Positions 25,834-62,659 of a DNA stretch of 64,000 nt are shown piece after piece; the stretch's first letter is position 1; each line of letters starts with the position of its first letter. The stretch is from Naegleria gruberi. Taxonomy: Eukaryota. The notes under the pieces are model-generated. The model had not been told where the DNA came from. It saw only the letters and a program-made list of their open reading frames with translations, and did not search any database. A program made the position numbers and the translations under genes. The stretch lies in assembly GCA_000004985.1 (NCBI GenBank), contig GG738908.1, one strand, 5' to 3'.

Positions 25834-26236
25834 ATTGAGTTGTTGAGTGTTTTGTTTTTCGGATTTTGGAGAAGGGACGCAAAGTCGATGAGGCCAACAC
25901 TTTTGACACTCAATTCACACCCACACAATTTGTGGTTGCATATTTCCTGTTGTTTGGTCCACTGTAAATAGTGTTAAAAAGGGTGCAGATGGGCTCACAT
26001 AGAGTCCACCACAGCCCTTCTCCAAAATTGTAAATCTTGAAAAATAACAACTTATTAAGACTTGATTACAGTTGCCAAGGGCGCAAACAGTAAATGAAGG
26101 AAATTGCCAGCACGCAAACAACAACATTTTGAGGTGTGAATGCACAGTTTGTCACAGATGTTTGCCTCTTCGTCAATGCGTCTTCTTTTGAAGCAAAACT
26201 TGAAAAAAACAACAACACAAACAAACAACACTCAGA
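25834..26236. promoter_or_regulatory. Shared divergent promoter region between the start codons of paralogs A and B (~400 bp).
   Basis: It lies between ATG 25833 (minus) and ATG 26237 (plus). It contains no long ORF apart from track artefacts. Confidence 0.4.
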
Positions 26237-29200
26237 GATGAAACTTCTTCATCATCACTATTTAACTTTCCTGTTATTGTTGTGGGTAGCGAGCTGTGTA
26301 GTGGCTGTGACCTTAGAACCATGCGCGGACATGACCAAAACAGCTCCTTATTGTAAGAATGGCCTCACTAAGAATTTTGAAAAATCCATCAAGGTATTTG
26401 ATGGTAGTTGGGAATTAAGGGATTCAATTGCTGACCAAAATGAGAGACACTATATGTTAATTAAGGAAAATTCATCAAAGATTATCATTCAGGGAAATCA
26501 ACGTTACGGCTCAAATTTCACACAGTTCTCATCTACCACAATTCAAGATGATTGTGGACAAGCAAATATTGAGGGAGAATCAATAAGGTTTTTGAACTCT
26601 GATGGGCAAATTCTATTGAGTGGTTGGTTTGTGGCCAGTGAATCTGTTTGCATTGGTGATTTTCACGTGTATCCACAACAAAATTCTTCAGCAAACTCAA
26701 CAGATCTCGCAGAAACTAGTATCCCTTTTTTAGCAATTCTTTCACCAATTACTGCTGCTGTGCAATCAGTGGTAACTCTTACGGATATGATTGGGTTCAG
26801 CCTGCAATCCTTGGATATAGATCAATATACTGGTAAGATTTACTTGATTATGCAAAACAAGACTCAAATCAACTTGGTGACACTCTTCAAGAATCAAATC
26901 ATTCTCAACCAGCAAATTGCAACCTGCCAAGATCCAACCAAGTGCCAAGTCTTGTCTATTCACTTCTCTGCCTTGTATGAAAGAATTATTGTCTCTTTCT
27001 TTGAGAAGTCTTCCTTTCAATTAACAATTGCTGGCGATATGAAAACGTATTCATCTTATCAATCAGCTCAATGGGTACTATTGCTCAATAAGGATGGATC
27101 CTATATTCACAACCAAAGAATCTTTCATAGCTCGGACTCTGTTATGTCCACACCTAAAATCAAGTTTGATTCTATTGGAAAACTCAACATTCTCCTTATT
27201 TGTGAAAGAAATTGTTACCTTAATGAAGATGCTGTTTCACCAAATGTATTCCTTCTTCAGTATGATTATGTAAACACAGTCTATTCATTTGTGAAGAACT
27301 TTATTTCTACAACTGGAAATTTCACATTCACCATTCATTCACTCTCTGTTGAAAGAGATTTAACACTGACTACTGTAATCTCACCACTTAATTCAGTTTC
27401 GTATACAATTAAAGATGTAGCAGGAAGATCTATGCAAGCTGTAAATAATACTGTCTATCAGTACAGATTCAGACATGTTGATGGAAAGATTATTCACATT
27501 CTTCCTCTCACTTCTGAAGTTGATTTGACTAATGCATTCCTAGTTTCAACTTCCAGTCCAGTTGTCAACACTAACAACTTTATAAGAGAACAGAATCCAA
27601 TCCTTTACACAAGAACATCACCAATTACATACAAGACAGAACTTTTTGTTCAAGCATATATTTATTATGGCAATAGAGATAATGAAAAGGACTATACCTA
27701 CATCTCGAAAAGTCCTAGATATGGTGGTGATAGTGGAGCTGGAGATCCAACAACCCAAAAGGTGTCAAGAATTGATATTTTGGGTGATGGATACGTTTAT
27801 TGCTTCAAATTCACATACACCGATGGAGCTATCAAATATTTTAATGAAGCAAGATGTATTGGTAGAGTTATCACTGCCTATTTAGACAATGATGAATATA
27901 TCAAGGAGATGAGCCACGATTATACCACCTTTGGGAGTGCGCAGATATTGCTTTGCATTTCGTTTAAAACAAACAAACAAACCATCAATTTTTTATGTGA
28001 CAACAAAGTGAAATTTGTGGAATATGTCCCAGAAGGATTAGAGGTAATAGGGTTTGGAGTTAAAAGTGGTTATTGTATTGATTCAATCTCCTATATGTAT
28101 GGCTATACCAATACTTATTCATGTGCCAACGGTTACAGTGGTGATGACTGTTCAGCCCCAGTATGTTATGATGTTGATTCTTCCAGTAAGTTGGTGTGTA
28201 ATGGAAATGGTCGATGTGCAGGTCCTAATAATTGCTCCTGTATGTCATCAAGTGTTAACACTGACTCTCACAATTGTGCATCATATTCATTTTGTAATGA
28301 TGTTTCATCCAACAGCGTGGCCATATGTTCTGGAAGAGGATCATGCCATTACAATGGAACATGTAGTTGTGAAAAAGGTTACTACGGAAATGAATGCTCA
28401 ATCGAAGCACAATGTTTTGGTATTCCAAAGAGCAGTTATGGAACTTGCTCTAATCATGGTAATTGTTTAGACATTGATACTTGCGAATGTAATGTAGGTT
28501 ACACTGGAAGAAATTGTGAACTCCCAATTTGTTTCGGAAAGGCGGCTAACACTTCAGGTATTTGTTCTGGACATGGATCTTGTGTGAGGCCAAGTGTCTG
28601 TTCTTGCAAAACTGGTTACTATGGTCCAAAATGTGAATATTTCTATTGTAATGGAACTGCCAATGCTTCTCCATCAGTTTGTTCATCAAAAGGTGGCTGT
28701 ATAGACTACAACAAATGTGTTTGTAAGGAAGGTTACTATGGTCCAAACTGTGAGCTCTATAATTGTAGTGGAATTGTGTATAATGATCCAAATGTTTGTT
28801 CAGGAAACGGACAATGCATTGGAGTAAATAATTGCGCATGTACCACTCCAAGATCTAGTGGTCAATCGTGTGAAAAATGTGATTCTGGTTACTTTGGGTC
28901 TCACTGTGAAAAGTTCACATGTGGCAACATTGAGAGCACCTCTCCAACCGTATGTAGTGGAAGAGGCATTTGTAAATCTTTAAATACTTGCATTTGTGAA
29001 AATGACAATATTAATGGAAAGCTTTGTGAAAGTTGCATCACTGGTTACTATGGGGAAAAGTGCACCAATTGGACATGTAATGGTATTCCAAGTACTAATA
29101 GTTCAGTTTGTAATTATAGAGGAGTTTGTTCTTCGTATAACAATTGTGTATGTAATAGCAGATCATATGGCACATATTGTAATCAGTGTATTGGATTCTA

Positions 29201-32200
29201 TGTTGGACAAACATGTGGATCATGTGCTGGATCTCATTATGGTGATGAGTGCTACAACTTTTTAGAATCAAATAAGGCCCCATATTTGAATTATCAAAAT
29301 GGTTTCATAATTATAACCAATACCAATTTTAGATTCCAGCAGGGAACTGTTGATTGTTCTCGTGTGTTTGAAAATGTTGGTGATATTTCTAAAGTTATCA
29401 ATGTTGTAACTTGTAAAGTTACAGAAATTGGACTCAATTTGGATAAACGAAGTTATAGATATACTATTGAAGTAACTATACCAAATAACTATGCAATTTT
29501 CAATCCAAGAAACCCTATCAGCTTCAACGTTATGTGGTCATCAACTAAAGCTCCTATTTATCAAATGGTCAACTTGGATATAAGTGACTTTTTGAAGAAT
29601 GAACAACCTTATTATCGTGGAGTATATTTCCAAGTGACCAATGGAGTTGCTAGTGGTAAAACAATTAACAGATGTTTTGAAACCAAAATCAAGGCATATT
29701 ATTCTCAGCCAGAATTTGGTACTTTCCAAAGCTTAACTTGGAATTTGACTGGAAACTCTGTATCATTAATGAAAAACAAATTAGTGAGCGATGCCATCCA
29801 AAATGCTCAAAACAAGCTCGAGTGGACTTTCCCTTACATTCCAGAGCTATCTCACTTTGGTTATATTGAATTATCTGTCAGTGTTGTCACTAATTTTGGT
29901 TTGAAATATACTTCTAGTGATGCGCTGAGCGTGAGTGGAAGCTACAGAAAAACACCTTACTATTTCCCAAGAACAACATTCCTTCTCACATCTAACGAAC
30001 TTACAATCCCATTATCACAATACTTTTCAGAAAATCTGGAATGCATTGATGGAAGAACTATTTCATACACAATTTCTAAACATTTCAAAATATTGGATAG
30101 TTACTTTTCTTTGGAGTTTACAGAAAAGGATATTGTCTTCAAAGCAAAGACCACTTCTATGTATATGTTTATTACAATCCAAATGATAGATGGTACTCAA
30201 ATTCTACTCAATTTCAATTTCAAACCTCCAACAGTTTCAATTAAGGAAACTGTAGTTGTTTACAAAGAATCAAGTGTTCCAACTTTGACTCTTTCTTGCA
30301 AGTATTATTATGGAAGAGATCAAATTTCCATTCCACAGATGATGTTAATAATGGAAAATAATCAAGTTTATAAGAGAATTATGATGGCTCAAACAGACGA
30401 AACTGTTTCATTGCAAGTCAATCAATTGTATCCTTGGTTTGATTTAACGATTCCTCACACCTTCACTGTTGCTTGCTTGCGGTCAACTGATTATGCTCTT
30501 TCTGACCTTTCTTCTCTTTCAAGAGTTATTACAAACTATAACAGTATCCTACCAGTTGTTGGAATTACAACACAAACAGTTTCCTTTATATCTGAAACAA
30601 TTAATGATTATTCTTCATGTAAGGTCCTTGGTGCAAGTTTGATTGGTTTAAAGTCAAATACCATTCCATTCCCAGAAATTTGGACTACCTATTTCCTTGA
30701 GATTTTGACAACTCAAGCTCCAAACTGCCAAGTTGATATTTCATATATTAATTCTCAAAATGAAAAATATATGTTAGATAATGTTTCTGTGAGTGGTTCT
30801 AAATATGTACTTCCATTACAATTTTTAGAAAGAAAGCTCAAATCTAGGTTGACAACAATTTCAAATCTCTACAATTATTTCACACTTTCCTTAAAAGGAT
30901 CCAATGATTTAGTTGAAAAAACTACCAATTTAATTGTACAAGATTCATTGTCTTCCATTGTTAATGTTGCTGATTGTACCATTTCTCCTTCAAAGATTGA
31001 AATTGGCTTTACACTTGCAAAACTTTCATGCTCAATATCTCCACCCTCCACATACTTAATGACACTTTATCATGAAGATTCTATTGTGGCAACTTCGTAT
31101 TCCTCACCAATTTCATTCAAGTTTTCAAAGAGTGGTAAGAATTTCAAGCTTCAATTCCTAGATGAAAAAACAGGAGGACAAACAACTTTGCCAATAACCC
31201 TGATGAACCAAATTGAGTTTAGTACAAGCAGTTTGTTTACAGATGAATTGGTTTCATCTATATCAAGTAGTCTGGCAAATTCAAGTTCAGATTATTTCAA
31301 GAATAATGATTTGGTAATTTCAATGGTTTCTAATTTCAATTCTCTTTCTTCAAATAATTCTATTGTTATGGGAGAAATTCAAAGAATAATTCCAGCTGCT
31401 TTAGCTGCCACTACTTCTTCAGTTTCCACCCAACTGGATGTCAATCTAGCCCAAGGATCTGTGACATCCGAAGCAATTTCTAAATATATCAATCAAGTCA
31501 AAATTCTTTCAAAACCTGAATTCCTTACTAAGGAAAGTACAATGTCAACTGTTGATATGATTAACAAGTTTGTTGATATTTCAAGTAAGGCAGCTGTTTG
31601 GTCATCAGATTCTTCAAATTCACTTTCTGAAATTTTGGTAAATGTTGCAGCAAATATCCCAGAAAGTTCTACTATCAAATTGGCATCTTCAATTGTGAAT
31701 GCTGCTATTTCGTTGGGAACTAAGGCCGAGTTGACAACTTTAGACTTTTTCCCAGGTGAAAAACCATCCAATTTGGTTTCTATTAATGCTGTCAAGACTT
31801 CAGTAGCCTTTTTGAATTCGAATAGTTTTTCCTTCTCCAATTCTAATAGTTCATTGGTCTCTTTTAGTGTTTCCACGGTTTCCACCATTCAAATGGTCAA
31901 TATTGCAAATTCATTATTCAAATTCCCAACCAAATTATCAAGAAAAGTTGAAGATGTAAAAAAGGAATATATTTCACAATTGACCATTTCAAATTCATTG
32001 ACAGGAAGTGTTCATATCAATATTCCAATTCCATCCTATATTGCACCAATCAGTTCAAGAACCAATCAAACATTCAGATGCAGTTTGACTCTTGATTTTA
32101 CAAATTTTGAAACTGAATCAAGTTGTAAATTTATCAAGACATCTTTCCAATTATTGACAGATATCAAAGCAAGTGAACAAACTCTTATTGTCCATTGTTT

Positions 32201-32699
32201 GTGTGATTTATCCTCTCTTTCCAACCTCATGAACAATTCAATGGTTGGAATAACTGCTGATTACCTTGAACAAACTCTTCCTCTTCCTGAAAAGTCAACC
32301 ACTCAAAACAGTGACAATAACAATAATGGTAATAACGATAATAATAACAATAACAGTAATGGAAATAGTAATGATAGTTCTGCAGCTGCAGCTGTGGTGA
32401 TTCTCATCCCAGTTCTCTTGTGTTGTGTCTGCTTTATCACAATTCCAATTGTTGTTGGTTTCATTATCGTGAGAGAGAAGAGAAAGCAACAGCAAAACAC
32501 TCCAAATGTTGCACCACCAATGCCTGCCAACACTCGACCACAATATGATAGAGTAATGACTAATTCAACCAATAGCTCAGGTTCTCCATTTGATCAATTT
32601 GGAAGAGTCAATTCGAATTTCAATCAACCATCTAGTAATAATATTGCAATGACAACATATTCTGAAACTAATTTGGGTCACAAACCTACAACTATATAA
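26237..32699 (+). CDS. Paralog B, ~2154 aa from the first ATG. Same architecture as A, plus an Asn-rich insertion (NSDNNNNGNNDNNNNNSNGNSND) before the TM helix.
   Basis: The first ATG is at 26237 (MKLLHHHYLTFLLLLWVASCVVAVT, a signal peptide). The track ORF starts upstream at 26136 with a non-ATG start. Identity to A is ~50-60% over the N-terminal half and ~95% aa over the last ~250 extracellular residues. The TM helix is AAAAVVILIPVLLCCVCFITIPIVVGFIIV. The tail ends PTTI. Confidence 0.8.
31549..32282. repeat. Inverted-repeat arm 2 inside the 3' part of paralog B. It matches 19742-20482 in reverse orientation.
   Basis: As for arm 1. Weaker similarity (~65% aa) continues 5' of the arm. Confidence 0.75.
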
Positions 32700-39052: not shown

Positions 39053-39124
39053 GGGACCATGGTCTAGTGGTATGATTCTCGCTTTGGGTGCGAGAGGCCG
39101 TGGGTTCGATTCCCACTGGTCCCC
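39053..39124 (+). tRNA. tRNA-Pro (anticodon UGG).
   Basis: GGGACCATGGTCTAGTGGTATGATTCTCGCTTTGGGTGCGAGAGGCCGTGGGTTCGATTCCCACTGGTCCC. It has a 7-bp acceptor stem, the anticodon loop CTTTGGGT and the T-arm GTGGGTTCGATTCCCAC. It is followed by a ttttatttttg Pol III terminator. Confidence 0.9.
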
Positions 39125-39323: not shown

Positions 39324-39396
39324 GGGGTCATGGCGCAGTCGGTAGCGCGTAGGTCTCATAATCCTAAGGTCGTGAGTTCGATCCTCACTGACCCCA
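39324..39396 (+). tRNA. Elongator tRNA-Met (anticodon CAU).
   Basis: GGGGTCATGGCGCAGTCGGTAGCGCGTAGGTCTCATAATCCTAAGGTCGTGAGTTCGATCCTCACTGACCCCA. The anticodon loop is CTCATAA. The acceptor stem GGGGTCA/TGACCCC pairs fully. A T-run follows. Confidence 0.9.
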
Positions 39397-53747: not shown

Positions 53748-54536
53748 TTAATTAATATTTAATTTGGCTCCGTTATCATCCAATTTTCTATAGAAAGCTG
53801 GCTCTCTAATAATTAATGGATATCTTTGGTGAGCAAGTTCACACATTAATGAGCAAATTTCTTGAACTTCAGTTTCGTTTCCAAAAGATGTCATTCTTCC
53901 AATAAGCAATTTGTGTAAATCTTTGATACTGATAGTGAATGTCAATGCATTGCATTTACAACCCAAATTGAGCATATTAAAGAATTCGGTATTTAACATT
54001 TCATTATTGACACCCTTCTTATCCCAAAATTGCTTATTTTCCTCTCTCAATTTCAAAAAATCTCTAATCATCTTTTTTTGGATTTCCTTGCTTTCTCCTT
54101 GAACACGATAAAAATTCTCACACATGGCCATTGTCTTGGAGGAAGTAAGACGAGCAATGGTTGCCTCCTTATGAGCACACAATTCCAAACAAGTTTCCAC
54201 TGTACAACCAGCAATCAAGAATGTAACATGAGTACCAGCATAGATTGACAAGTGTTTAGCTTCATTGATCATACGATCGTGAAAATTCAAACTCTCCTCT
54301 TGAGTTATTGGTTGATCTTTAAAGCTCAAGTATGTAATTCTACCTTTAAATTCGGCCGATTGCAAATAATCATCACCATGATTACAATGCATTGCTTCAT
54401 ACAATTCTTTTGCTTCTTCGGTATTTTGTGTAACTTCGGTGATCATCACTCCTGGTTTAATGACAAATAAATCATCTTCAACAATTCCTCCACTCTTTGT
54501 GATGAGAGTTCCGAGACGGCTTTTAAATTGAGACAT
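53748..54536 (-). CDS. ThyX-family (flavin-dependent thymidylate synthase-like) protein, 262 aa, with a non-canonical motif where RHRxxS...SxR is expected.
   Basis: ATG at 54536. By hand it aligns to ThyX: AKHLSIYA...TFLIAGCTVETCLELCAHKEATIARLTSSKT against HKHWSIFE...[29 protein letters not shown]. The C-terminal helix SIKDLHKLLIGRMTSFGNETEVQEI matches TIRDWIHYIELRTSNGTQREHIDLA. Confidence 0.5.
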   Translation of the reverse strand: MSQFKSRLGTLITKSGGIVEDDLFVIKPGVMITEVTQNTEEAKELYEAMHCNHGDDYLQSAEFKGRITYLSFKDQPITQEESLNFHDRMINEAKHLSIYAGTHVTFLIAGCTVETCLELCAHKEATIARLTSSKTMAMCENFYRVQGESKEIQKKMIRDFLKLREENKQFWDKKGVNNEMLNTEFFNMLNLGCKCNALTFTISIKDLHKLLIGRMTSFGNETEVQEICSLMCELAHQRYPLIIREPAFYRKLDDNGAKLNIN

Positions 54537-54960
54537 TTTTTTAATTTGTTTTTTTTTGTAAACTTTGGAAGAGAGAGATTGATGACGTTTGTAATCTTAA
54601 TATCATAACATTCTATATTCCAATTGGATAATCAATATGAATTTTCGAAAGTCCAATATTTCAGTATATTATTAACGTTATTATAGAGTTCAATACAGAC
54701 AAGGTGCTTCATCCACTCTGCCTTTAACAATTGACTGATTAACTTGTTATCCTTCCTAATTTATCAATTAATAACATCAGATACTCAAAATCTTATATCT
54801 GACCCTTCCTTTATTGTCCAATTTCTTCAAAAAGCAAAAATCTTAAAACGAAACCTTGATATCATGGTTATTATTGGCACTGAAAGGTGTGGTTATTACT
54901 TTGAAATCTTTTAAAAAAACCTTCGAGAATTGTACCACACCGTGTTTTCCACTCAAAACC

Positions 54961-55182
54961 ATGAGAAGGCTTACCATTGTTTTGTTAGTATGCATGTTAA
55001 TTTTATTTTTGGTTTGTGTGAATTCTCAACCACCTCCTTATCGAGAAGGAAATAAGGGTGAAACAAGTATCCCACCTCAACCATCTATCCAAACCGAAAA
55101 TTTACAAGCAAATTCAATTGTGTTTCAAGTCAATTCTGTGGTAAAATGGCAAGCCTATTTAAGAGGTAAATGTGATAAATAA
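54961..55182 (+). CDS. Small secreted peptide precursor (73 aa).
   Basis: ATG at 54961. The signal peptide is MRRLTIVLLVCMLILFLVCVNSQ. It ends TAA. Confidence 0.4.
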   Translation: MRRLTIVLLVCMLILFLVCVNSQPPPYREGNKGETSIPPQPSIQTENLQANSIVFQVNSVVKWQAYLRGKCDK

Positions 55183-55198
55183 ACATATCGATATTCAT

Positions 55199-55268
55199 TT
55201 CGCGATAGATCAGTTGGTTAGGAAGCCTAACACGCTTAAGGTCGCGGGTTCAAGCCCCGCTCGCTGTA
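55199..55268 (+). tRNA. tRNA-Val(AAC)-like element. The anticodon and T arms are canonical, but the acceptor and D stems pair poorly in my hand fold, so it may be a pseudogene or a divergent tRNA.
   Basis: The anticodon stem-loop GAAGC-CTAACAC-GCTTA matches the GCCTAACACGC signature of Val-AAC. The T-arm is GCGGGTTCAAGCCCCGC. The variable loop is AGGTC. The acceptor TTCGCGA/TCGCTGT gives only 4 Watson-Crick pairs plus 1 GU pair. The D-stem is GATC against GGAA. Confidence 0.45.
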
Positions 55269-55451
55269 ACCTTTTGCCCATTAGAACAACAATCCTTATC
55301 ATCTTTTTGTCAGCAATTGGAAAAAATTTCCAGAACTGCCTAATTCACTTTCTCAGCCTTTTTCCATTTATTAACATTGCTACATCACAGTCCATATCTT
55401 TAATTCCAAACTGAATGTATTCCACACCAAAAAAATCAAATCCACACAACA

Positions 55452-55706
55452 ATGAAAAAGTCCTGTATTCTCCTCACTTTCCTCATTTTCTTCCTCTTCT
55501 TGGCTCTTCTTGTTGAAAGCCAAAAGCAAAAGCCAACACGTTCTCCAAGACCTGTTCATCCAACTCCGCATGCCTCAGCACGTGTTCATCCAGCACATCC
55601 AGTTAGGCCAACTGCTTCAACTCATCCAGGACAAGGCCACGTTAGACCACTTCGCTCACTTTTGAGACCTCTTCGTTCAAAGCTTCGTCCACAACCTTCT
55701 CAATAA
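55452..55706 (+). CDS. Small secreted cationic Pro/Arg/His-rich peptide precursor (84 aa).
   Basis: ATG at 55452. The signal peptide is MKKSCILLTFLIFFLFLALLVESQ. The mature part has repeated HPxxP and RP motifs: RPVHPTPHASARVHPAHPVRPTASTHPGQGHVRPLRSLLRPLRSKLRPQPSQ. Confidence 0.45.
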   Translation: MKKSCILLTFLIFFLFLALLVESQKQKPTRSPRPVHPTPHASARVHPAHPVRPTASTHPGQGHVRPLRSLLRPLRSKLRPQPSQ

Positions 55707-55757
55707 AACAATTATTAACCAGTATTGTCATATTTTATTAATGGTAAAGCTAACAAT

Positions 55758-56807
55758 CTAGTCAATTCTGATTACAACCTTTCCAAAGTGCTTTCCACTA
55801 GCCAAATACTCAAAAGCTTCTTTTACATTCTCAAAGTCAAACACCCTATCTACAACAGGTTTAATTTCATTAATTTCAATGGACTTGTTCATCCTCTCAA
55901 ACACACCTCTCGATCCAATATAAATTCCCCTCATCTGGACCGAACTATAGAGAACCTTCTCTCCAAATCCACTACAGGTTCCAGCAGACTTGGCCAAAAC
56001 ACCAATAATATGGACATGCCCTCCCAAACGCACAGCATCCAGTGAACGATTCAAAGTGCCCTCTCCACCAACTTCCAACACATGATCGACACCTTTTCCG
56101 TTAGTAATTTCTCTCACCTTAATTTCCCAATCTGGATGTTTCTTATAATTAATTAAAAAAGAAGCACCAAGAGATTGAGCGAGTTTTAACTTTTCATCAC
56201 TGGAGGACAGTACCATAACTTGGCAACCAGCTCTTACTGCAAATTGAAGACCAAACAGAGAGACACCACCAGTTCCAATAATGAGAACAGTTTCGCCTGG
56301 GCCTGCCTTGACACCATTCTCATTGAGAGCACTCCATGCAGTGACTGCAGCACATGGTAAGGTTGAAGCTTGTTCATAACTCAAATGAGAAGGAAACTTG
56401 ATCAAAGCACTCTCTTCAAAGACACGATATTGAGCCAAGACTCCTGGTACAGTAGCACCAAGAGCACGAGAGACATTGTCAGGAGTGATAGGACCATCTT
56501 GCCAAGTTTCAAAGAAGGTTCCACATACACGATCACCAATTTGAAAGGAAGTTACTTCATCTCCCAAGGCAACTACTTGTCCAGCTCCATCTGAGAGTGG
56601 AATTAATCCTGGTGGGAAGGAGAAACTTCCAAATTGACCTCTCGAGATGAGAATGTCTCTAAAGTTGAGACTGGCTGCATGTAAACGAACAAGGACTTGT
56701 TTTCTTTGGGGAGTTTCTACTGGTTCTGAAGGGAAGAGAGTAAGACCATGTGTGCCTTCAAAATGTTGTAGACGATATTGTTTTTGTGTGGTTGGGATTT
56801 CTGCCAT
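55758..56807 (-). CDS. Medium-chain dehydrogenase/reductase family, quinone-oxidoreductase / zinc-type alcohol-dehydrogenase-like (349 aa).
   Basis: ATG at 56807. The nucleotide-binding segment is VLIIGTGGVSLFGLQFAVRAGCQV. The overall MDR layout is LVRLHAASLNFRDI...GDRVCG... The stop is TAG, which is unusual here. Confidence 0.8.
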   Translation of the reverse strand: MAEIPTTQKQYRLQHFEGTHGLTLFPSEPVETPQRKQVLVRLHAASLNFRDILISRGQFGSFSFPPGLIPLSDGAGQVVALGDEVTSFQIGDRVCGTFFETWQDGPITPDNVSRALGATVPGVLAQYRVFEESALIKFPSHLSYEQASTLPCAAVTAWSALNENGVKAGPGETVLIIGTGGVSLFGLQFAVRAGCQVMVLSSSDEKLKLAQSLGASFLINYKKHPDWEIKVREITNGKGVDHVLEVGGEGTLNRSLDAVRLGGHVHIIGVLAKSAGTCSGFGEKVLYSSVQMRGIYIGSRGVFERMNKSIEINEIKPVVDRVFDFENVKEAFEYLASGKHFGKVVIRID

Positions 56808-57269
56808 TTTTTGATTTTGCTATTTTCTATGTTTCTCTTTTACCTTTATTGTAAAATGTTACAACGAGCATAAATATTCCTGCGCCCTATTGAATTATCA
56901 CGCCAAGAATTTCAGTTATTGAGCACGTACTAATTAAGATTTTTACAATAGCAATCATGATGATAATCACAATCAAACTTCAGTTTCATCATGAAAAGAA
57001 GAAGGAACAATTTCTCAATCTGTAAATCCTCGTTTCAGAGCAATTTGGCATCATGTGAGGAACGGTAACCAGCTTAATCAATTGATTTCTACAGTATTCG
57101 ATTATACAAATGGTCAATTTCATATCATAACCAAGACCTCCTACCAATTGAATTGAATATTATTCTTTCCGATGAGGGTTTTCATGTGATTTTCTTGAGC
57201 TTGAAGAAACGTGTGAATTGAATTTACCTTTGTTAAGTAAGGGTTAATAATATTGTTCGAATGATTTAT

Positions 57270-58961
57270 TTAATAGTAAATATCTCTGACACCTTCAGCA
57301 ATTCTTTCAAGGTTCTTCTTGAGTGACTTTCTCTTGGCTTCAGATGGAATGTTCTTTTGTTCTTCTTCAATTCTGTTCCAACCAACAGTTTGAGTTTTTT
57401 CATCGGCATAGTCATGCAAGTATTCAGCAAGTGTCATGATACTGTTAGGATGACACATATTTTGAATGTCACCCTTCTTGGCAATCTTCATAAACTTTTC
57501 ACCAGTACGATTCATTCTGTAACAAGCAGTACAGAAGCTTGGCATGTATCCAGTTTCCAATAATTCACGAATAACTTCACCAGTATTTCTGTGATCACCT
57601 AATGAGAATTGACCCATAGAGTAGTCATCACGCTCGTCTTCCTTCTTTTCATAACCACCAACTGCAGTGTTGGATCCAGCAGACATTTGTGAAATACCAA
57701 GAGAAAGCAATTCTCTTCTCATATCTGGATTTTCTCTTGTGGAGAGAATCATACCAGTGTATGGAACTGAACATCTCAATACAGCAACCAATTTTTTGAA
57801 TTGAGCATCACTGACAAGGTTTGGAACATGAACAGAAACCTCAGAGCCAGATGCTGGTTTCAGTCTTGGAACTGAGATGGTGTGTGGGCCAGCATTCCAA
57901 ACATCACTCAAATGGTTAGCATGTTGCAACATTGCCAACACCTCGAATCTATAGTCATATAAACCAAACAAAGCACCAATACCAACATCATCCAATCCAG
58001 TCACGAAGGCCTTATCCATGGTTTGCAATCTGTCGTAGTATTGTCCTTTAGTACCAAATGGATGCATTTCCTTGTGTGTTTGACGATGATAAGTTTCTTG
58101 GAACAAGATGTATGTTCCGACCTTGTTGGTTGCCTTCAATCTTCTAAAATCAGAAACACTCAATTGAGGAATTTCAACATTGATTCTTCTCACATCACCA
58201 TGAGGTTCAGTCTTGACATCAGCAGCAACTTGCAATTGTCTCATAAAATCTTCAAATGTATACTTTGGACTTTCTCCGCACAACATTAAAATTCTCTTGT
58301 GACCTTGTTTTTGTAAAGCTTCAACTTCTCTAATGACTTCTTCATCAGAGAGGGCTGATCTTGGCATTTCCTTATTAGATCCTCTGTATCCACAATATAA
58401 ACAACTTCCAACACAATAATTACTAGTATACAGTGGTGCAAACAAAACAATTCTGTTTCCGTAAATTAATTCCTTAATATAAAAAGCTGTTGTATATAAA
58501 CTGTTGAGAATATCAGTTTCTTCCTCTGGAATATTCAACAAGGTTGCAGTATCTTCAAGTGACAATCCTTGAATATATTCATCTTTAGGAATGGTTTCAC
58601 AACTTTGTGATTCAACTTCTCCACCATTCTTCTTATTTCGGAGAAGTGGTGATTTGAGCAAGGCTTGATCTCTAGCTCTCTTCAAAATTTGTCGAACGTG
58701 TTCATGATCTTTGGCTTTTTCCTTTGTTTCTTCCATCATTTGATGAATAAGTTTTTCATCAATAATTTTGGTTGGATCTGGAAGTTGTTTCAAGGTTTCT
58801 GGTTCTCTTTCTACGGACCACCTAGCTTGTGATTTAATGGATGTATGGAAATTCTTTGATGCAGATAACAATGAAGCACTACTACCATTAGTAACAGCAC
58901 AACTACTCAAAAGACCTGATCTTCTTCCACCATTAGCAGCCAATCTAGCTAAACTCTTCAT
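57270..58961 (-). CDS. hydG: [FeFe]-hydrogenase maturase HydG (radical-SAM tyrosine lyase), 563 aa, with an N-terminal targeting-like extension.
   Basis: The radical-SAM motif is CVGSCLYCGY (CX3CX2C). The HydG-specific C-terminal auxiliary-cluster motif CTAC-X22-C (CX2CX22C) is present exactly. It is ThiH-like overall. The N-terminus is MKSLARLAANGGRRSGLLSS. Confidence 0.88.
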   Translation of the reverse strand: MKSLARLAANGGRRSGLLSSCAVTNGSSASLLSASKNFHTSIKSQARWSVEREPETLKQLPDPTKIIDEKLIHQMMEETKEKAKDHEHVRQILKRARDQALLKSPLLRNKKNGGEVESQSCETIPKDEYIQGLSLEDTATLLNIPEEETDILNSLYTTAFYIKELIYGNRIVLFAPLYTSNYCVGSCLYCGYRGSNKEMPRSALSDEEVIREVEALQKQGHKRILMLCGESPKYTFEDFMRQLQVAADVKTEPHGDVRRINVEIPQLSVSDFRRLKATNKVGTYILFQETYHRQTHKEMHPFGTKGQYYDRLQTMDKAFVTGLDDVGIGALFGLYDYRFEVLAMLQHANHLSDVWNAGPHTISVPRLKPASGSEVSVHVPNLVSDAQFKKLVAVLRCSVPYTGMILSTRENPDMRRELLSLGISQMSAGSNTAVGGYEKKEDERDDYSMGQFSLGDHRNTGEVIRELLETGYMPSFCTACYRMNRTGEKFMKIAKKGDIQNMCHPNSIMTLAEYLHDYADEKTQTVGWNRIEEEQKNIPSEAKRKSLKKNLERIAEGVRDIYY

Positions 58962-59428
58962 CTTTTCTACTCGGATGTTTTTTTTGTATGAAATTGTATG
59001 TACAAGGTGATATTTGTGTTTTTCAAGTTGTTGTGTTGATATTTGGCTAATGAAAAACTCAAATTTGTTTTGAATTGTGTTTTGTTTTAATTTTTTCTAT
59101 TGTTGTCTAATAGATGACAAAGAAGAGTTTTTCGCTTGTGCTGACGAAAAGATTCTCCACCAAATTAGTGCCTGATTCAATACAAAAAAAAAGATGAGGA
59201 ACCAAAAAGGAAATGAGGTAAGAATCATAGAGTTGTGTATTGAGACCTTTTTCAAGTGAGAGAATCAATAGTTGAAAGAATCTCTTAGAGTTTCATCATC
59301 CAATGAATACATCTTTGCTTAAAAGTCATTGTTTTGCATTGAGAACTATTTTGGAAAAAATTAAGAAAAAAAAATAGCAAAAAAAAACAAAAGCGAAAAT
59401 TCAATCTCATCTTTTCGTAAAATAGTTC
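58962..59428. promoter_or_regulatory. 467-bp divergent promoter region shared by HydG (minus) and HydE (plus).
   Basis: It lies between the two start codons. It is AT-rich with poly-A runs and no ORF. Confidence 0.45.
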
Positions 59429-61003
59429 ATGATGAAGGGATTGAAAAAATCAGCCACGACACTTCTAAGATCGTCCAAGAGTGGTGGTATCAACTTTAAA
59501 GCAGCATCATTGATTTCGGAATTGAAGTTTGTTCCGAATCAATTGTTGATGAGAAATAACTTTTCTACTTCTTTGATACAACAACATGGCGACCACCACC
59601 ATGATCATCATCATCATGATTTGATGGAGGATGAACTGTTACCTACTCCTAAAAAGACAATTATCAATATTAAAGAACCTCCAATACCTACAGAAGTTGA
59701 TTTGGGAGCAATGGGTGAGCAAGTTGCAACAGCATCATCAGCCAATTCTGATCCAAAAGCTGCTGAACGTAAAATGAAAAGAGCAAGAACTGTAAATTAT
59801 CTTCAAAAACCACTCGAACAGAGAATTTTAGTATTGGAAAAGTATTTTGGAGTGAAACCAGAACTTGGAAAACCTGTGGAATTAACAAAGGAACAAATTG
59901 TAAATGTTTTAAATATTGAGGATCATGAGGAACAAAGAGCTCTCTTTGACTATGCCAATTCAATTACTGAATCAATTTATGGCTCAAAGGTTTACTTTAG
60001 AGGTATTATTGAATTTTCAAATGTTTGTCAGAAGGACTGCAATTATTGTGGTATTAGAAAACATATGCAAGTACCAAGATATACAATGCCAAAAGAAGAA
60101 ATAATAGAACAAGCTATTTGGGCCTATGAAAATCATTTTGGATCCATCATGTTACAATCTGGTGAATTGAATACAGAAGGAAGAATCTCAATGTTAGTCG
60201 ATGTCATTCGTGAAATTAAGAAACGTACAGGTGGAGGAGGTCCAGGTGAATGGAATAAGGGACTTGGTATTGCTCTCGGTGTTGGTGAATTGAGTAGAGA
60301 ATCTTATCAGAGATTATATGATGCTGGTGCTCACAGATATCTCCTAAGAATTGAAACATCCAATCCAGAACTCTACTCTAAACTCCATCCTAACGATGAA
60401 AATCACGTATGGGAAGAACGAAAGAAGTGCTTGGAAACTCTAATGGATATTGGATATCAAACTGGTACTGGTGTAATGATTATGATTCCAAATCAAACAG
60501 TTCAAGATTTGGCAGACGATTTACTCTTCTTTAGAAAAATTGGAGCTGATATGATTGGTATGGGACCATACATTGTTCAAGAAGGAACACCAATTGGAAA
60601 GATTTGGATGGAGCAATATGGTCACATGAATGAAGCAGAAAAGAAGGAATATAACAGAGTTCTATTCAGATTGGCTCTGAAGATGACTGCCCTGGCAAGA
60701 ATTTTAATTCCTGAAGCTAATATTTCTGCAACAACAGCTCTTCAAGCCATCAATCCAGCTGGTAGAGAAATAGCTTTAAGTTCTGGTGCCAATATGGTCA
60801 TGCCTATTATTACACCAACCAAGTATCGTGTCAATTATCAACTCTATCAAGGAAAACCTTGTATTGATGATACTAAGGAAGAATGTAAGAGATGTTTAAC
60901 AGATCGTGTTAAATGGTCTAACAAGCAATTGATTTTAGATGAATGGGGTGATCCAATCAGCTACTTTAATAAGAGAAATATGAAAGTACCGAACAAGGAA
61001 TAA
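59429..61003 (+). CDS. hydE: [FeFe]-hydrogenase maturase HydE (BioB-like radical-SAM), 524 aa, with an N-terminal targeting-like extension.
   Basis: ATG at 59429. The radical-SAM motif is CQKDCNYCG. The HydE-specific C-terminal motif C-IDDTKEE-C-KR-C (CX7CX2C) is present exactly. The N-terminus is MMKGLKKSATTLLRSSKSGG...NFSTSLIQQ, followed by a His-rich tract HGDHHHDHHHHD. Confidence 0.88.
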   Translation: MMKGLKKSATTLLRSSKSGGINFKAASLISELKFVPNQLLMRNNFSTSLIQQHGDHHHDHHHHDLMEDELLPTPKKTIINIKEPPIPTEVDLGAMGEQVATASSANSDPKAAERKMKRARTVNYLQKPLEQRILVLEKYFGVKPELGKPVELTKEQIVNVLNIEDHEEQRALFDYANSITESIYGSKVYFRGIIEFSNVCQKDCNYCGIRKHMQVPRYTMPKEEIIEQAIWAYENHFGSIMLQSGELNTEGRISMLVDVIREIKKRTGGGGPGEWNKGLGIALGVGELSRESYQRLYDAGAHRYLLRIETSNPELYSKLHPNDENHVWEERKKCLETLMDIGYQTGTGVMIMIPNQTVQDLADDLLFFRKIGADMIGMGPYIVQEGTPIGKIWMEQYGHMNEAEKKEYNRVLFRLALKMTALARILIPEANISATTALQAINPAGREIALSSGANMVMPIITPTKYRVNYQLYQGKPCIDDTKEECKRCLTDRVKWSNKQLILDEWGDPISYFNKRNMKVPNKE

Positions 61004-61102
61004 AGACTCGTTTTGTACTTCCTGGAACCAATCACAAATGATTTGAGAATTATCTGCTTCAGTTCGTCATAAAAATTTTTTTATTTTGAACGTATTGGTC
61101 AA

Positions 61103-62215
61103 TTAATTCAATTTGAACATTCCTTGAACATCCTTTGCAGAGTAGGCTCCTTCCAAACTCTTCTTCTCCTCTTCAGTCAATTGAATTTCCAATGCTTGAA
61201 CATTGAGCTCAACATTAATAGCCTTTGTTGCACCAATTACCGGACTTACAACCCCAGGCTTTGAAAGCAACCAAGCAAGTGCAATTTGAGCTGGAGAAAC
61301 ATTTCTATTCTTGGCAATCTCAGAAACTTTTCTCAAAGTTTCCTTATCACCTTCAGTCAACTTGTCCTTAAATAAGGATTGAACAAAATCGGTGCTTTGT
61401 CTCTTGGATCCGTTTTCAGTAGTTTCAGTTGCCTTCTCCTCAGCATTGACAAATTCATGAGCACGAGCTAACATTCCATTAGAAAGAGGTCCCCAAGGTG
61501 TGAGTGAAACACCTTGATCAACACACAATGGATTCATTTCTCTCTCCTCTTCTCTATAGATGAGATTGTAGAGATTTTGCATGGAAATGAATTTAGTCAA
61601 TCCCTTCTTCTCAGCATAATGTTGAGCTTTAGCAAATTGCCAAGCAAACATAGTAGAAGCACCAATGTATCTGACCTTGCCAGATTTAACCAAATCATGG
61701 AGAGCGTCCATGGTTTCTTCAATTGGTGTTTGTTCATCCCAACGATGGATAATGTACAAATCAATGTCTGTTTGAATTTTTCATTTCGTACGAGTTGAAA
61801 TAAAGTAATACTTACAATCAAGACCCAATCTTTGTAATGAATCCTCAACGGCATGCATAATGTGCTTTCTGGAAAGGCCCATAGTATTCGGCTTGGCTTG
61901 ACTACCAACCATAATGAGCTTTTGTTCACCAGAACGATCCAATGGTGCACAAACTTTGGTAGCTACCACAATTTCCTCTCTCGGAATGTTAAATTCCTTA
62001 ATGAACTTGCCCAAAATTCTTTCACTTTCTCCATTGCTGTAAATATTGGCAGTGTCGAAAAAGTTAATGCCCAAATCCCAGGCCTTCTTCAAAATGGTCA
62101 ATGATTCCTCTTCTTCCAAAACCCATGGAAGCCACTTGGAAGATCCAAAGCTCATGCAACCCAAACAAAGTTGAGAAACCTTCAAACCACTTTCACCCAA
62201 ATTGACGTATTTCAT
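61103..62215 (-). CDS. Aldo-keto reductase, ~354 aa. Two exons: 61816-62215 and 61103-61767.
   Basis: ATG at 62215. A 48-nt intron (gtaagtattacttt...caaacag) at 61768-61815 joins in frame. It splits and so reconstitutes the AKR signature ...LQRLGLD|YIDLYIIHRWDEQTP. Exon lengths 400+665 = 1065 nt. Confidence 0.85.
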
Positions 62216-62536: not shown

Positions 62537-62654
62537 GGCTACGGCCATATCACGATGAATGCACCTCATCCCGTCCGATTTGAGAAGTTAAGCATCGTCG
62601 AGCCACATCAGTACTGAGGTTGGAGACAACTTGGGAACCTGTGGTGCTGTAGTC
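62537..62654 (+). rRNA. 5S ribosomal RNA gene.
   Basis: GGCTACGGCCATATCACGATGAATGCACCTCATCCCGTCCGATTTGAGAAGTTAAGCATCGTCGAGCCACATCAGTACTGAGGTTGGAGACAACTTGGGAACCTGTGGTGCTGTAGTC. Helix I pairs the 5' end (GGCTACGGC) with the 3' end (GCTGTAGTC), with two GU pairs. It has the conserved CCCGTCCGAT and AGTTAAGC blocks. Confidence 0.9.
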
Positions 62655-62659
62655 TTTTT
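62655..62659 (+). terminator. Pol III terminator, a T5 run directly after the 5S gene.
   Basis: ttttt immediately 3' of the 5S 3' end. Confidence 0.6.

What the first reader, a model, noticed from the sequence alone, without database searches (positions are those of the whole stretch)
55758..62215. Divergent HydG/HydE hydrogenase-maturase pair inside a four-gene redox cluster
HydG (57270-58961, minus) carries the diagnostic CX3CX2C motif plus the C-terminal CX2CX22C motif. HydE (59429-61003, plus) carries CX3CX2C plus CX7CX2C. They are transcribed head-to-head from a shared 467-bp promoter. Both have N-terminal presequence-like extensions. An MDR quinone oxidoreductase lies immediately upstream and an aldo-keto reductase immediately downstream. 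H-cluster maturases are restricted to a minority of eukaryotes that make active [FeFe]-hydrogenase. Here the two genes are physically paired, as in a co-regulated module, within an otherwise dictyostelid-looking genome. The third maturase, hydF, and the hydrogenase itself are not in this window.
Basis: partly seen in the sequence, partly recalled or inferred. Interest (0 to 1): 0.75.

Follow-up and report, generated by a model that had tools for sequence, protein, structure and literature searches.

The report
Naegleria gruberi HydG–HydE maturase pair
These are the already annotated and partly characterised hydrogenase-maturation genes hydG and hydE of the amoeboflagellate Naegleria gruberi, sitting back-to-back on a shared spacer; the reading of the sequence is correct, but it is known biology, and the two flanking reductase genes are only chance neighbours.

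Summary
Both proteins pass the curated HydG and HydE equivalog cut-offs and fail those for ThiH, BioB and PylB. They are not new. They are 100% identical to XP_002671139.1 (HydG) and XP_002671091.1 (HydE) of Naegleria gruberi NEG-M, a heterolobosean and not a dictyostelid. Published work shows that N. gruberi has HydA and all three maturases and makes H2 aerobically. It also shows that HydE and the hydrogenase are cytosolic, and that the HydE N-terminal extension does not act as a mitochondrial presequence in yeast. The "four-gene redox cluster" is not supported: MDR and AKR are absent from the orthologous N. fowleri locus, and AKR is absent beside HydE in a closer Naegleria relative. The HydG|HydE pair is conserved in three Naegleria lineages. 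The same head-to-head topology occurs in Porphyridium and Volvox, and other maturase pairings occur in Acanthamoeba and Chrysophaeum, whereas the bacterial sister group has a co-directional hydG-hydE-hydF operon. Minor new leads are a repeated AAGAATC(A/T) motif shared by the three Naegleria spacers and a conserved His-rich module in the HydE extension.

The parts
57270..58961 (-). hydG: radical-SAM tyrosine lyase that makes the Fe(CO)2(CN) synthon. 563 aa, identical to XP_002671139.1.
   Evidence: TIGR03955 477 bits vs cut-off 312. Best PDB hit is T. italicus HydG 4wcx, E 6.6e-144, with ThiH only 1.8e-46. CX3CX2C at 183-190 and CX2CX22C at 477-503. Exact match to the N. gruberi NEG-M protein. 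Core dN/dS 0.04-0.07.
58962..59428 (.). 467-bp shared spacer, a putative bidirectional promoter. It carries three AGAATC cores: AAGAATCA at 59220, AGAATCA at 59261 and AAGAATCT at 59276.
   Evidence: Length and GC 0.29. The motif occurs two to three times in the spacers of all three Naegleria lineages, 110-210 nt upstream of the HydE ATG. Three shared 8-mers vs 0.02 in shuffles. The spacer is the top-scoring place in the 64-kb window for k-mers shared by the other two spacers. No transcription data were examined, so promoter function is inferred.
59429..61003 (+). hydE: radical-SAM maturase that processes the HydG synthon. 524 aa, identical to XP_002671091.1.
   Evidence: TIGR03956 295 bits vs cut-off 254.6. 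Best PDB hit is T. maritima HydE 3ciw, E 6.6e-73. CX3CX2C at 200-207 and CX7CX2C at 478-489. Exact match to the accession cloned by Tsaousis et al. 2014. Core dN/dS about 0.055.
59585..59674 (+). The part of hydE that encodes the conserved His-rich module (aa 53-82, HGDHHHDHHHHDLMEDELLPTPKKTIINIK).
   Evidence: Conserved in N. fowleri, Naegleria sp. L011 and Willaertia. Absent from P0125, P0127 and Acanthamoeba HydE. dN/dS for aa 51-150 is 0.08-0.13.
55758..56807 (-). MDR-superfamily zinc-type dehydrogenase/quinone-oxidoreductase-like gene. A neighbour, not part of the module.
   Evidence: Pfam ADH_N, ADH_zinc_N and ADH_zinc_N_2. No NCBIfam model reaches its cut-off. No homologue in the orthologous N. 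fowleri locus.
61103..62215 (-). Aldo-keto reductase gene: 2 exons, 48-nt intron at 61768-61815, 354 aa. A neighbour, not part of the module.
   Evidence: Pfam Aldo_ket_red on both ORF halves. The splice restores LGLDYIDLYIIHRWD with no internal stop. Absent after HydE in N. fowleri and in L011.
53748..54536 (-). Thy1/ThyX-like ORF, the only neighbour of the pair that is conserved in N. fowleri.
   Evidence: Weak Pfam PF02511 hit (E 0.0016, below the gathering score). A 76%-identical orthologue lies directly next to HydG in N. fowleri.

Best explanation
The locus holds the nuclear hydG and hydE genes of Naegleria gruberi NEG-M. These are two of the three accessory enzymes (HydE, HydF, HydG) that build the [2Fe] subcluster of the H-cluster of the organism's [FeFe]-hydrogenase.

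Mechanism, inferred from the characterised bacterial enzymes: HydG uses its N-terminal radical-SAM [4Fe-4S] cluster to cleave tyrosine. It assembles an Fe(II)(CO)2(CN)(cysteinate) synthon on the auxiliary C-terminal cluster bound by CX2CX22C. HydE, a second radical-SAM enzyme, takes that synthon and converts it towards a dinuclear Fe precursor. The precursor is completed on HydF and inserted into apo-HydA.

In Naegleria the two genes are transcribed divergently from a short shared spacer (467 bp here, about 380 bp and 199 bp in two other Naegleria lineages). The spacer most likely acts as a bidirectional promoter that keeps the two enzymes in step; this is inferred. The products work in the cytosol. 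That is shown for HydE and HydA by others and inferred for HydG.

The N-terminal extensions are not working mitochondrial presequences. Their first ~45-50 residues drift freely. The inner parts are conserved and presumably functional, including a His-rich module in HydE.

The flanking MDR and AKR genes are unrelated neighbours specific to the N. gruberi lineage.
For: Identity: exact matches to XP_002671139.1 and XP_002671091.1, both on one 259,034-bp scaffold.

Family: equivalog scores are above the HydG/HydE cut-offs and below those for ThiH, BioB and PylB. Best solved structures are HydG 4wcx and HydE 3ciw, with all cluster cysteines aligned. Motifs are present.

Function in vivo: N. gruberi produces H2, its hydrogenase is active and cytosolic, HydE is cytosolic, the HydE N-terminus fails to target yeast mitochondria, and the N-termini were confirmed by 5'RACE (PMC4007538). 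The three maturases plus HydA were reported in the genome.

Constraint: core dN/dS is 0.04-0.07. GC3 is 0.26-0.28, equal to host genes.

Pair conservation: head-to-head in N. fowleri and in Naegleria sp. contig L011.

Co-variation: HydE falls 2.8-fold and HydG 2.4-fold in iron-starved N. fowleri.

Shared spacer motif.
Against: No transcript or TSS data were examined here, so 'shared bidirectional promoter' is inferred from geometry and a modest sequence footprint. The AAGAATCW motif is only mildly enriched window-wide (27 observed vs 17.7 expected). In the reciprocal scan of N. fowleri, a site inside the HydG coding sequence scored as high or higher.

The parallel drop of HydE and HydG under iron starvation could be post-translational, because apo Fe-S proteins may be unstable.

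HydG localisation was not tested by anyone cited. The pair is split in the sister genus Willaertia, so linkage is not obligatory. The catalytic chemistry is extrapolated from bacterial enzymes.
Confidence: 0.93

Rival explanations
1. The four genes (MDR, HydG, HydE, AKR) form a co-regulated redox module, and the two reductases serve hydrogenase maturation or H2-linked electron flow.
For: Physical adjacency in N. gruberi. All four are redox or Fe-S enzymes by family.
Against: In N. fowleri the orthologous locus reads ADK, Thy1-like, HydG, HydE, DOCK/kinase, with no MDR or AKR and no tblastn trace of either within 21.6 kb. In the closer relative L011, the 883 bp after HydE hold no AKR, whereas in N. 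gruberi the AKR starts 99 bp after HydE. MDR and AKR are very large, ubiquitous families, and neither is part of any described maturation pathway. MDR is co-oriented with HydG but lies behind its 3' end, and AKR is convergent with HydE, so neither shares the spacer.
Confidence: 0.03
2. The ORFs are ThiH and BioB/PylB-type radical-SAM enzymes (thiamine, biotin or other cofactor synthesis) misread as hydrogenase maturases.
For: They belong to the same radical-SAM/BATS superfamily. Several database entries for orthologues are auto-named '2-iminoacetate synthase' or 'biotin synthase'.
Against: ThiH scores 264 bits against a cut-off of 380, while HydG scores 477 against 312. BioB scores 76 against 225 and PylB 104 against 348, while HydE scores 295 against 254.6. 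PDB: HydG E 6.6e-144 vs ThiH 1.8e-46. The HydG-specific C-terminal CX2CX22C domain is present, and ThiH lacks it. The organism has an active [FeFe]-hydrogenase.
Confidence: 0.01
3. The pair is a bacterial contaminant or a very recent lateral transfer still arranged as an operon fragment.
For: The closest prokaryotic relatives (Anoxychlamydiales) carry hydG-hydE-hydF as a tight operon. Eukaryotic maturases are thought to derive from a bacterial donor (PMC7449678).
Against: The genes are divergent, not co-directional as in the operon. They carry eukaryote-specific N-terminal extensions conserved in Naegleria and Willaertia. GC3 equals that of surrounding host genes. They are embedded among eukaryotic genes (an intron-containing AKR, 5S rRNA, RGS, BTB, EGF). 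Orthologues in the same context exist in N. fowleri.
Confidence: 0.01
4. The N-terminal extensions are functional mitochondrial presequences, and maturation occurs in mitochondria. This was the original 2010 genome prediction and is implied by the first reader.
For: Basic, Ser/Thr/Ala/Leu-rich N-termini with almost no acidic residues. In-silico predictions cited in PMC4007538. Mitochondrial HydE-G in Acanthamoeba (PMC13632651).
Against: Immunofluorescence, cell fractionation, enzyme activity and heterologous GFP targeting in yeast all place HydA and HydE in the cytosol. The first 45-50 residues are essentially unconstrained in sequence (pN 0.54-0.61).
Confidence: 0.07

Closest known systems
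Naegleria gruberi NEG-M HydG (XP_002671139.1 / D2VXT5) and HydE (XP_002671091.1 / D2VXT6)
   Same: Identical sequences on the same scaffold. HydE is the very protein localised to the cytosol by Tsaousis et al. 2014.
   Different: Nothing differs: this is the same locus. The papers I could search describe the proteins but do not mention their head-to-head arrangement.
Bacterial HydG (Thermoanaerobacter italicus, PDB 4wcx) and HydE (Thermotoga maritima, PDB 3ciw)
   Same: Full-length homology of the catalytic cores. All radical-SAM and auxiliary-cluster cysteines are conserved.
   Different: The Naegleria proteins carry N-terminal extensions of about 65 aa (HydG) and about 147 aa (HydE) that bacteria lack. 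The genes are divergent rather than in a co-directional hydG-hydE-hydF operon as in Anoxychlamydiales.
Green-algal HYDEF/HYDG pair (Volvox carteri; Chlamydomonas reinhardtii from memory of Posewitz et al. 2004)
   Same: The HydE-containing gene and HydG are head-to-head about 426 bp apart in Volvox (PMC4416025 Table 2). They are co-induced by hypoxia in Chlamydomonas.
   Different: In the algae HydE is fused to HydF, the products are plastid-targeted, and the genes are intron-rich. In Naegleria HydE is separate, the genes are intronless, and the products are cytosolic.
Other eukaryotic maturase clusters: Porphyridium purpureum HydG|HydE, Chrysophaeum taylorii HydE-HydG-HydF, Acanthamoeba castellanii HydF|HydE, Nannochloropsis HYDA1/E/F/G
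   Same: Maturase genes are physically paired, usually head-to-head on a short spacer.
   Different: The partner and order vary (G|E, G|F, F|E). Linkage is absent in Willaertia, Anaeramoeba and Carpediemonas and loose in Pelomyxa.

Membership tests
HydG ([FeFe]-hydrogenase H-cluster radical-SAM maturase, TIGR03955) | Scores above the curated equivalog cut-off and above the sister family ThiH | tested here: met
   477 bits vs cut-off 312.15. ThiH scores 263.6 bits, below its cut-off of 380.
HydG ([FeFe]-hydrogenase H-cluster radical-SAM maturase, TIGR03955) | N-terminal CX3CX2C radical-SAM cluster motif | tested here: met
   C183/C187/C190, aligned with CVNNCRYC of 4wcx.
HydG ([FeFe]-hydrogenase H-cluster radical-SAM maturase, TIGR03955) | C-terminal domain with CX2CX22C, which binds the auxiliary cluster where the Fe(CO)2CN synthon forms. 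ThiH lacks this domain. | tested here: met
   C477/C480/C503, aligned residue-for-residue with the T. italicus HydG C-terminus out to the last residue.
HydG ([FeFe]-hydrogenase H-cluster radical-SAM maturase, TIGR03955) | Tyrosine lyase activity producing CO and CN- | not testable with these tools
   Inferred from homology. The organism does make an active [FeFe]-hydrogenase (PMC4007538).
HydE ([FeFe]-hydrogenase H-cluster radical-SAM maturase, TIGR03956) | Scores above the curated equivalog cut-off and above BioB, PylB and HmdB | tested here: met
   294.9 bits vs cut-off 254.6. PylB 103.9 (cut-off 348), BioB 76.4 (cut-off 225) and HmdB 43.3 (cut-off 321).
HydE ([FeFe]-hydrogenase H-cluster radical-SAM maturase, TIGR03956) | CX3CX2C radical-SAM motif, plus the optional C-terminal CX7CX2C auxiliary-cluster motif | tested here: met
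   C200/C204/C207 and C478/C486/C489, both aligned with T. maritima HydE.
HydE ([FeFe]-hydrogenase H-cluster radical-SAM maturase, TIGR03956) | Co-occurrence with HydF, HydG and an H-cluster hydrogenase in the same genome | tested here: met
   HydG is adjacent. HydF and HydA (XP_002674266) are reported in the N. gruberi genome and hydrogenase activity was measured (PMC4007538; PMC3785491). They are not in this window. I did not search the genome for them independently.
Bidirectional-promoter gene pair | Head-to-head genes less than 1 kb apart, with the arrangement conserved in relatives | tested here: met
   Spacers of 467 bp (N. gruberi), about 382 bp from ORF starts (N. fowleri) and 199 bp (L011).
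Bidirectional-promoter gene pair | Correlated transcription from shared regulatory elements | tested here: inconclusive
   Only indirect evidence: parallel protein decrease in iron-starved N. fowleri and a shared AAGAATC(A/T) footprint. No RNA data are available through these tools.
Functional four-gene redox cluster (MDR-HydG-HydE-AKR) | Conservation of the gene neighbourhood in related genomes | tested here: not met
   MDR and AKR are absent from the N. fowleri locus, and AKR is absent from L011.
Mitochondrial presequence | The N-terminus directs import into mitochondria | tested here: not met
   Not testable computationally here. Published experiments show that the HydE N-terminus fused to GFP stays cytosolic in yeast and that native HydE is cytosolic. 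HydG was not tested.

The most novel reading that the evidence does not exclude
Head-to-head pairing of H-cluster maturase genes on a short shared spacer may be a recurrent, selectively maintained eukaryotic replacement for the bacterial hydG-hydE-hydF operon. The pairings seen are G|E in Naegleria and Porphyridium, EF|G in volvocine algae, G|F in Chrysophaeum and F|E in Acanthamoeba. In Naegleria the spacer carries a conserved repeated AAGAATC(A/T) element that would co-regulate the two radical-SAM enzymes. In addition, the vahlkampfiid HydE extension, with its conserved His-rich HGDHHHDHHHHD...ELLPTPK module, may be a lineage-specific functional domain (for example metal handling for cytosolic maturation) rather than a decayed presequence.
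Probability: 0.3. Interest if true: 0.45.

Novelty: already known. Interest (0 to 1): 0.2.

Why it matters
The genes matter for the debate on anaerobic metabolism in early eukaryotes: an obligate aerobe with a complete, active and cytosolic [FeFe]-hydrogenase system. That debate was opened by the 2010 genome paper and the 2014 localisation study, not by this finding.

This re-examination adds four things:
1. A clean rejection of the dictyostelid attribution.
2. A clean rejection of the four-gene redox cluster.
3. Evidence that the HydG|HydE head-to-head pairing is conserved within Naegleria and recurs in distant eukaryotes, in contrast with the co-directional operon of the bacterial sister group.
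4. Two testable leads: a candidate cis-element in the spacer and a conserved His-rich module in HydE.

Tried and rejected
- An exact look-up of the window HydG in the contig index returned nothing, although the protein is in the protein collection. This is an index gap, not biology.
- The Tetradesmus HydEF look-up also returned nothing, so its adjacency rests only on consecutive locus tags.
- Pairwise alignment of the N. gruberi and N. fowleri spacers showed no long conserved block. Only the k-mer approach with three species gave a signal.
- I suspected a tRNA between Thy1 and MDR from a 'GSSP'-like translation. ARAGORN and Rfam found none there.
- The Thy1-like ORF has no PDB sequence relative and no NCBIfam hit, so its function is left open.
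- Literature searches for an explicit description of the Naegleria head-to-head arrangement, or of a bidirectional maturase promoter, found nothing relevant. Posewitz et al. 2004 (Chlamydomonas hydEF/hydG) is not in the searchable library, so that comparison is from memory.
- I did not use the sigma-70 promoter scan, because it is inapplicable to a eukaryote.
- I ran no further search on HydF, because published work already documents HydF and HydA in this genome.

Full report
**1. What is there.**
The ORFs are exactly as described. 57270-58961 (-) encodes 563 aa and 59429-61003 (+) encodes 524 aa. They are head-to-head, separated by exactly 467 bp of AT-rich DNA (GC 0.29).

All four cysteine motifs are present at single positions:
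- HydG: C183-X3-C187-X2-C190 and C477-X2-C480-X22-C503.
- HydE: C200-X3-C204-X2-C207 and C478-X7-C486-X2-C489.

The MDR ORF (55758-56807, -) matches ADH_N and ADH_zinc_N. The AKR is one gene split by a 48-nt GT..AG intron (61815-61768 on the minus strand). Removing the intron restores the canonical LGLDYIDLYIIHRWD junction and gives a 354-aa product with no internal stop.

**2. Family identity.**
Scores against NCBI's curated equivalog models:

| ORF | Model | Bits | Cut-off |
|---|---|---|---|
| First (HydG) | HydG TIGR03955 | 477 | 312 |
| First (HydG) | ThiH | 264 | 380 |
| Second (HydE) | HydE TIGR03956 | 295 | 254.6 |
| Second (HydE) | PylB | 104 | 348 |
| Second (HydE) | BioB | 76 | 225 |

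Against solved structures, the best hits are T. italicus HydG (4wcx, E 6.6e-144; ThiH only 1.8e-46) and T. maritima HydE (3ciw, E 6.6e-73). Both the radical-SAM and the auxiliary-cluster cysteines are aligned.

**3. Whose genes they are.**
- The HydG ORF is 100% identical over its full length to '[Fe]-hydrogenase maturation protein HydG [Naegleria gruberi]'.
- Exact-sequence look-up gives XP_002671139.1/D2VXT5 for HydG and XP_002671091.1/D2VXT6 for HydE. Both are on the same 259,034-bp scaffold of strain NEG-M.
- N. gruberi is a heterolobosean (Discoba), not an amoebozoan dictyostelid.
- GC3 of the two genes (0.28 and 0.26) equals that of unrelated genes in the window (0.28-0.29).
- The surroundings are eukaryotic: an intron-containing AKR, a 5S rRNA gene, tRNAs, and RGS, BTB, U-box and EGF/jacalin proteins. 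Contamination is excluded.

**4. What is already known.**
Tsaousis et al. 2014 (PMC4007538) report the following:
- The 2010 genome paper had identified the [FeFe]-hydrogenase and three maturase genes.
- 5'RACE confirmed the long N-termini of the hydrogenase and of the maturases.
- N. gruberi produces about 6 nmol H2/min/10^7 cells under air.
- Hydrogenase activity and protein are exclusively cytosolic, and HydE (this very accession) is cytosolic by immunofluorescence and fractionation.
- The first 690 bp of HydE fused to GFP stay in the yeast cytosol, whereas NgSdhB is imported into mitochondria.

Leger et al. 2013 also state that the hydrogenase and all three maturases are in the genome and that PFO is absent. 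The second refutation condition (no hydF or hydrogenase) therefore fails as well. Within this window there is indeed no hydF (tblastn best E > 2) and no hydrogenase domain in the scanned ORFs of at least 180 aa.

**5. The 'four-gene redox cluster'.**
In N. fowleri the orthologous locus reads ADK(+), Thy1-like(-), HydG(-), HydE(+), then a 2412-aa DOCK/kinase gene. tblastn with the N. gruberi MDR and AKR finds nothing in that 21.6-kb locus, whereas Thy1-like (76% identity), HydG (88%) and HydE (74%) are found in order.

A metagenomic contig from a closer relative (L011; HydE 81%, HydG 86% identity) carries HydG(-)|HydE(+). It shows no AKR in the 883 bp after HydE, while in N. gruberi the AKR begins 99 bp after HydE.

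MDR and AKR are therefore neighbours specific to the N. gruberi lineage. Neither shares the spacer: MDR lies behind HydG's 3' end, and AKR is convergent with HydE. I reject the four-gene module.

**6. The pair itself.**
Head-to-head HydG|HydE is conserved in N. gruberi, N. fowleri and L011. Spacers are 467 bp, about 382 bp (measured from the longest ORF starts) and 199 bp. In the sister genus Willaertia, HydG has other neighbours and HydE is on a different contig.

Arrangement in other lineages:

| Lineage | Arrangement |
|---|---|
| Porphyridium purpureum | HydG(-)\|HydE(+) head-to-head |
| Volvox carteri | HYDEF(-)\|HYDG(+) head-to-head, about 426 bp apart (published coordinates) |
| Chrysophaeum taylorii | HydE(+), HydG(-), HydF(+) contiguous |
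| Acanthamoeba castellanii | HydF(-)\|HydE(+) head-to-head |
| Nannochloropsis gaditana | published four-gene HYDA1/E/F/G cluster |
| Pelomyxa schiedti | HydG and HydF about 6 kb apart |
| Anaeramoeba ignava | HydG solitary within ±8 kb |
| Carpediemonas membranifera | HydG solitary within ±8 kb |
| Anoxychlamydiales (bacterial sister group, PMC7449678) | overlapping co-directional hydG-hydE-hydF operon |

The divergent topology is therefore a eukaryotic derivative. It recurs with different partners and is not universal. My sample is small, and part of it was chosen because locus tags were consecutive, so I treat any general claim as a lead only.

**7. Regulation (inferred).**
In iron-starved N. 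fowleri, HydE (NF0081220) and HydG (NF0081230) fall 2.8- and 2.4-fold, HydA falls 3.7-fold, and hydrogenase activity falls 95% (PMC7326272). This fits co-regulation but does not prove transcriptional control.

The three Naegleria spacers share an AGAATC core two to three times each, mostly as (A)AGAATC(A/T), lying 110-210 nt upstream of the HydE ATG.
- Three non-trivial 8-mers are shared, against 0.02 expected in shuffles.
- When the k-mers common to the N. fowleri and L011 spacers are scanned across the whole 64-kb window on both strands, the true spacer is the top-scoring location.
- The motif itself is only mildly over-represented window-wide (27 vs 17.7).
- In the reciprocal scan of N. fowleri, one site inside the HydG coding sequence scored as high or higher.

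This is a modest footprint, not a proven element.

**8. The N-terminal extensions.**
Bacterial homology begins at about residue 66 of HydG and about residue 148 of HydE.

- First 45-50 residues: basic and nearly free of acidic residues. They are essentially unconstrained in sequence (pN 0.54-0.61, synonymous sites saturated).
- Inner segments: under purifying selection (HydG aa 46-115 dN/dS about 0.08; HydE aa 51-150 about 0.08-0.13), against 0.04-0.07 for the catalytic cores.
- HydE carries a conserved His-rich tract followed by ELLPTPKKTIINI (aa 53-82). It is present in all three Naegleria lineages and in Willaertia. It is absent from the next-closest eukaryotic HydEs, which have short N-termini.

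Together with the published cytosolic localisation, this argues that the extensions are not working presequences and that part of them has another, unknown role.

**9. Mechanism.**
The enzymology is taken from established work on bacterial HydG and HydE, reviewed in papers listed (PMC8855341, PMC8162317, PMC12501116). I did not read these here, so it rests on my own knowledge. It is inferred for Naegleria.
- HydG cleaves tyrosine by radical-SAM chemistry and builds an Fe(II)(CO)2(CN)(Cys) synthon at its C-terminal auxiliary cluster.
- HydE uses that synthon as substrate, on the way to the [2Fe] precursor.
- HydF delivers the precursor to apo-HydA.

All cluster ligands needed for these steps are present.

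**10. Verdict.**
The locus is already annotated and experimentally studied, so novelty is 'already known' and interest is low. The residual leads are the recurrent head-to-head maturase pairing across eukaryotes, the spacer motif and the His-rich HydE module. They are modest and are stated separately in the novel case.

Noticed in passing
window 62537-62655 (+): A complete dispersed 5S rRNA gene (Rfam RF00001, 105 bits). It lies 322 nt upstream of the AKR start codon, just outside the finding's coordinates.
   Followed up: no
window 59585-59674 (+), HydE aa 53-82: His-rich tract HGDHHHDHHHHD followed by ELLPTPKKTIINI. It is conserved in N. fowleri, a third Naegleria lineage and Willaertia, and absent from other eukaryotic and bacterial HydEs. 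The surrounding segment is under purifying selection. It is reminiscent of the His-rich metal-binding tails of Ni-enzyme maturation proteins (from memory). Function unknown.
   Followed up: partly
window 53748-54536 (-); L001 6935-7723: A ThyX/Thy1-like ORF is the only neighbour of the pair that is conserved between N. gruberi and N. fowleri (76% identity). The Pfam hit is below threshold in N. gruberi (E 0.0016). By eye, the canonical ThyX RHRxxS motif looks degenerate (AHKEATIARLTSS). There is no PDB or NCBIfam match.
   Followed up: partly
L001 7873-9618 (N. fowleri HydG): The deposited N. fowleri HydG model (522 aa, FDP41_010482) appears N-terminally truncated. The ORF continues to an upstream ATG that gives 581 aa, this aligns with the N. 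gruberi N-terminus, and a 581-aa member exists in the same protein cluster.
   Followed up: partly
P0124 (Willaertia magna HydE model, 833 aa): The Willaertia HydE prediction carries an N-terminal enoyl-CoA hydratase domain (PF00378) ahead of the His-rich module. This is probably two merged gene models rather than a real fusion.
   Followed up: no
window 19366-25833 (-) and 26136-32699 (+): Two giant ORFs (2155 and 2187 aa) with the same EGF/teneurin-EGF/jacalin domain set, so probably paralogues. They are arranged head-to-head about 300 bp apart.
   Followed up: no
window 39053-39124 and 39324-39396 (+): tRNA-Pro(TGG) and tRNA-Met(CAT) genes 200 bp apart.
   Followed up: no
window 54537-57269: Relative to N. 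fowleri, where Thy1-like and HydG are about 150 bp apart, N. gruberi has about 2.7 kb inserted. The insert contains the MDR gene (GC 0.42, the highest of the regions measured in this locus, but with host-like GC3 of 0.29). It also holds two small ORFs with hydrophobic, signal-peptide-like N-termini (by eye; 54856-55182 and 55452-55706). The origin of the insertion was not investigated.
   Followed up: no
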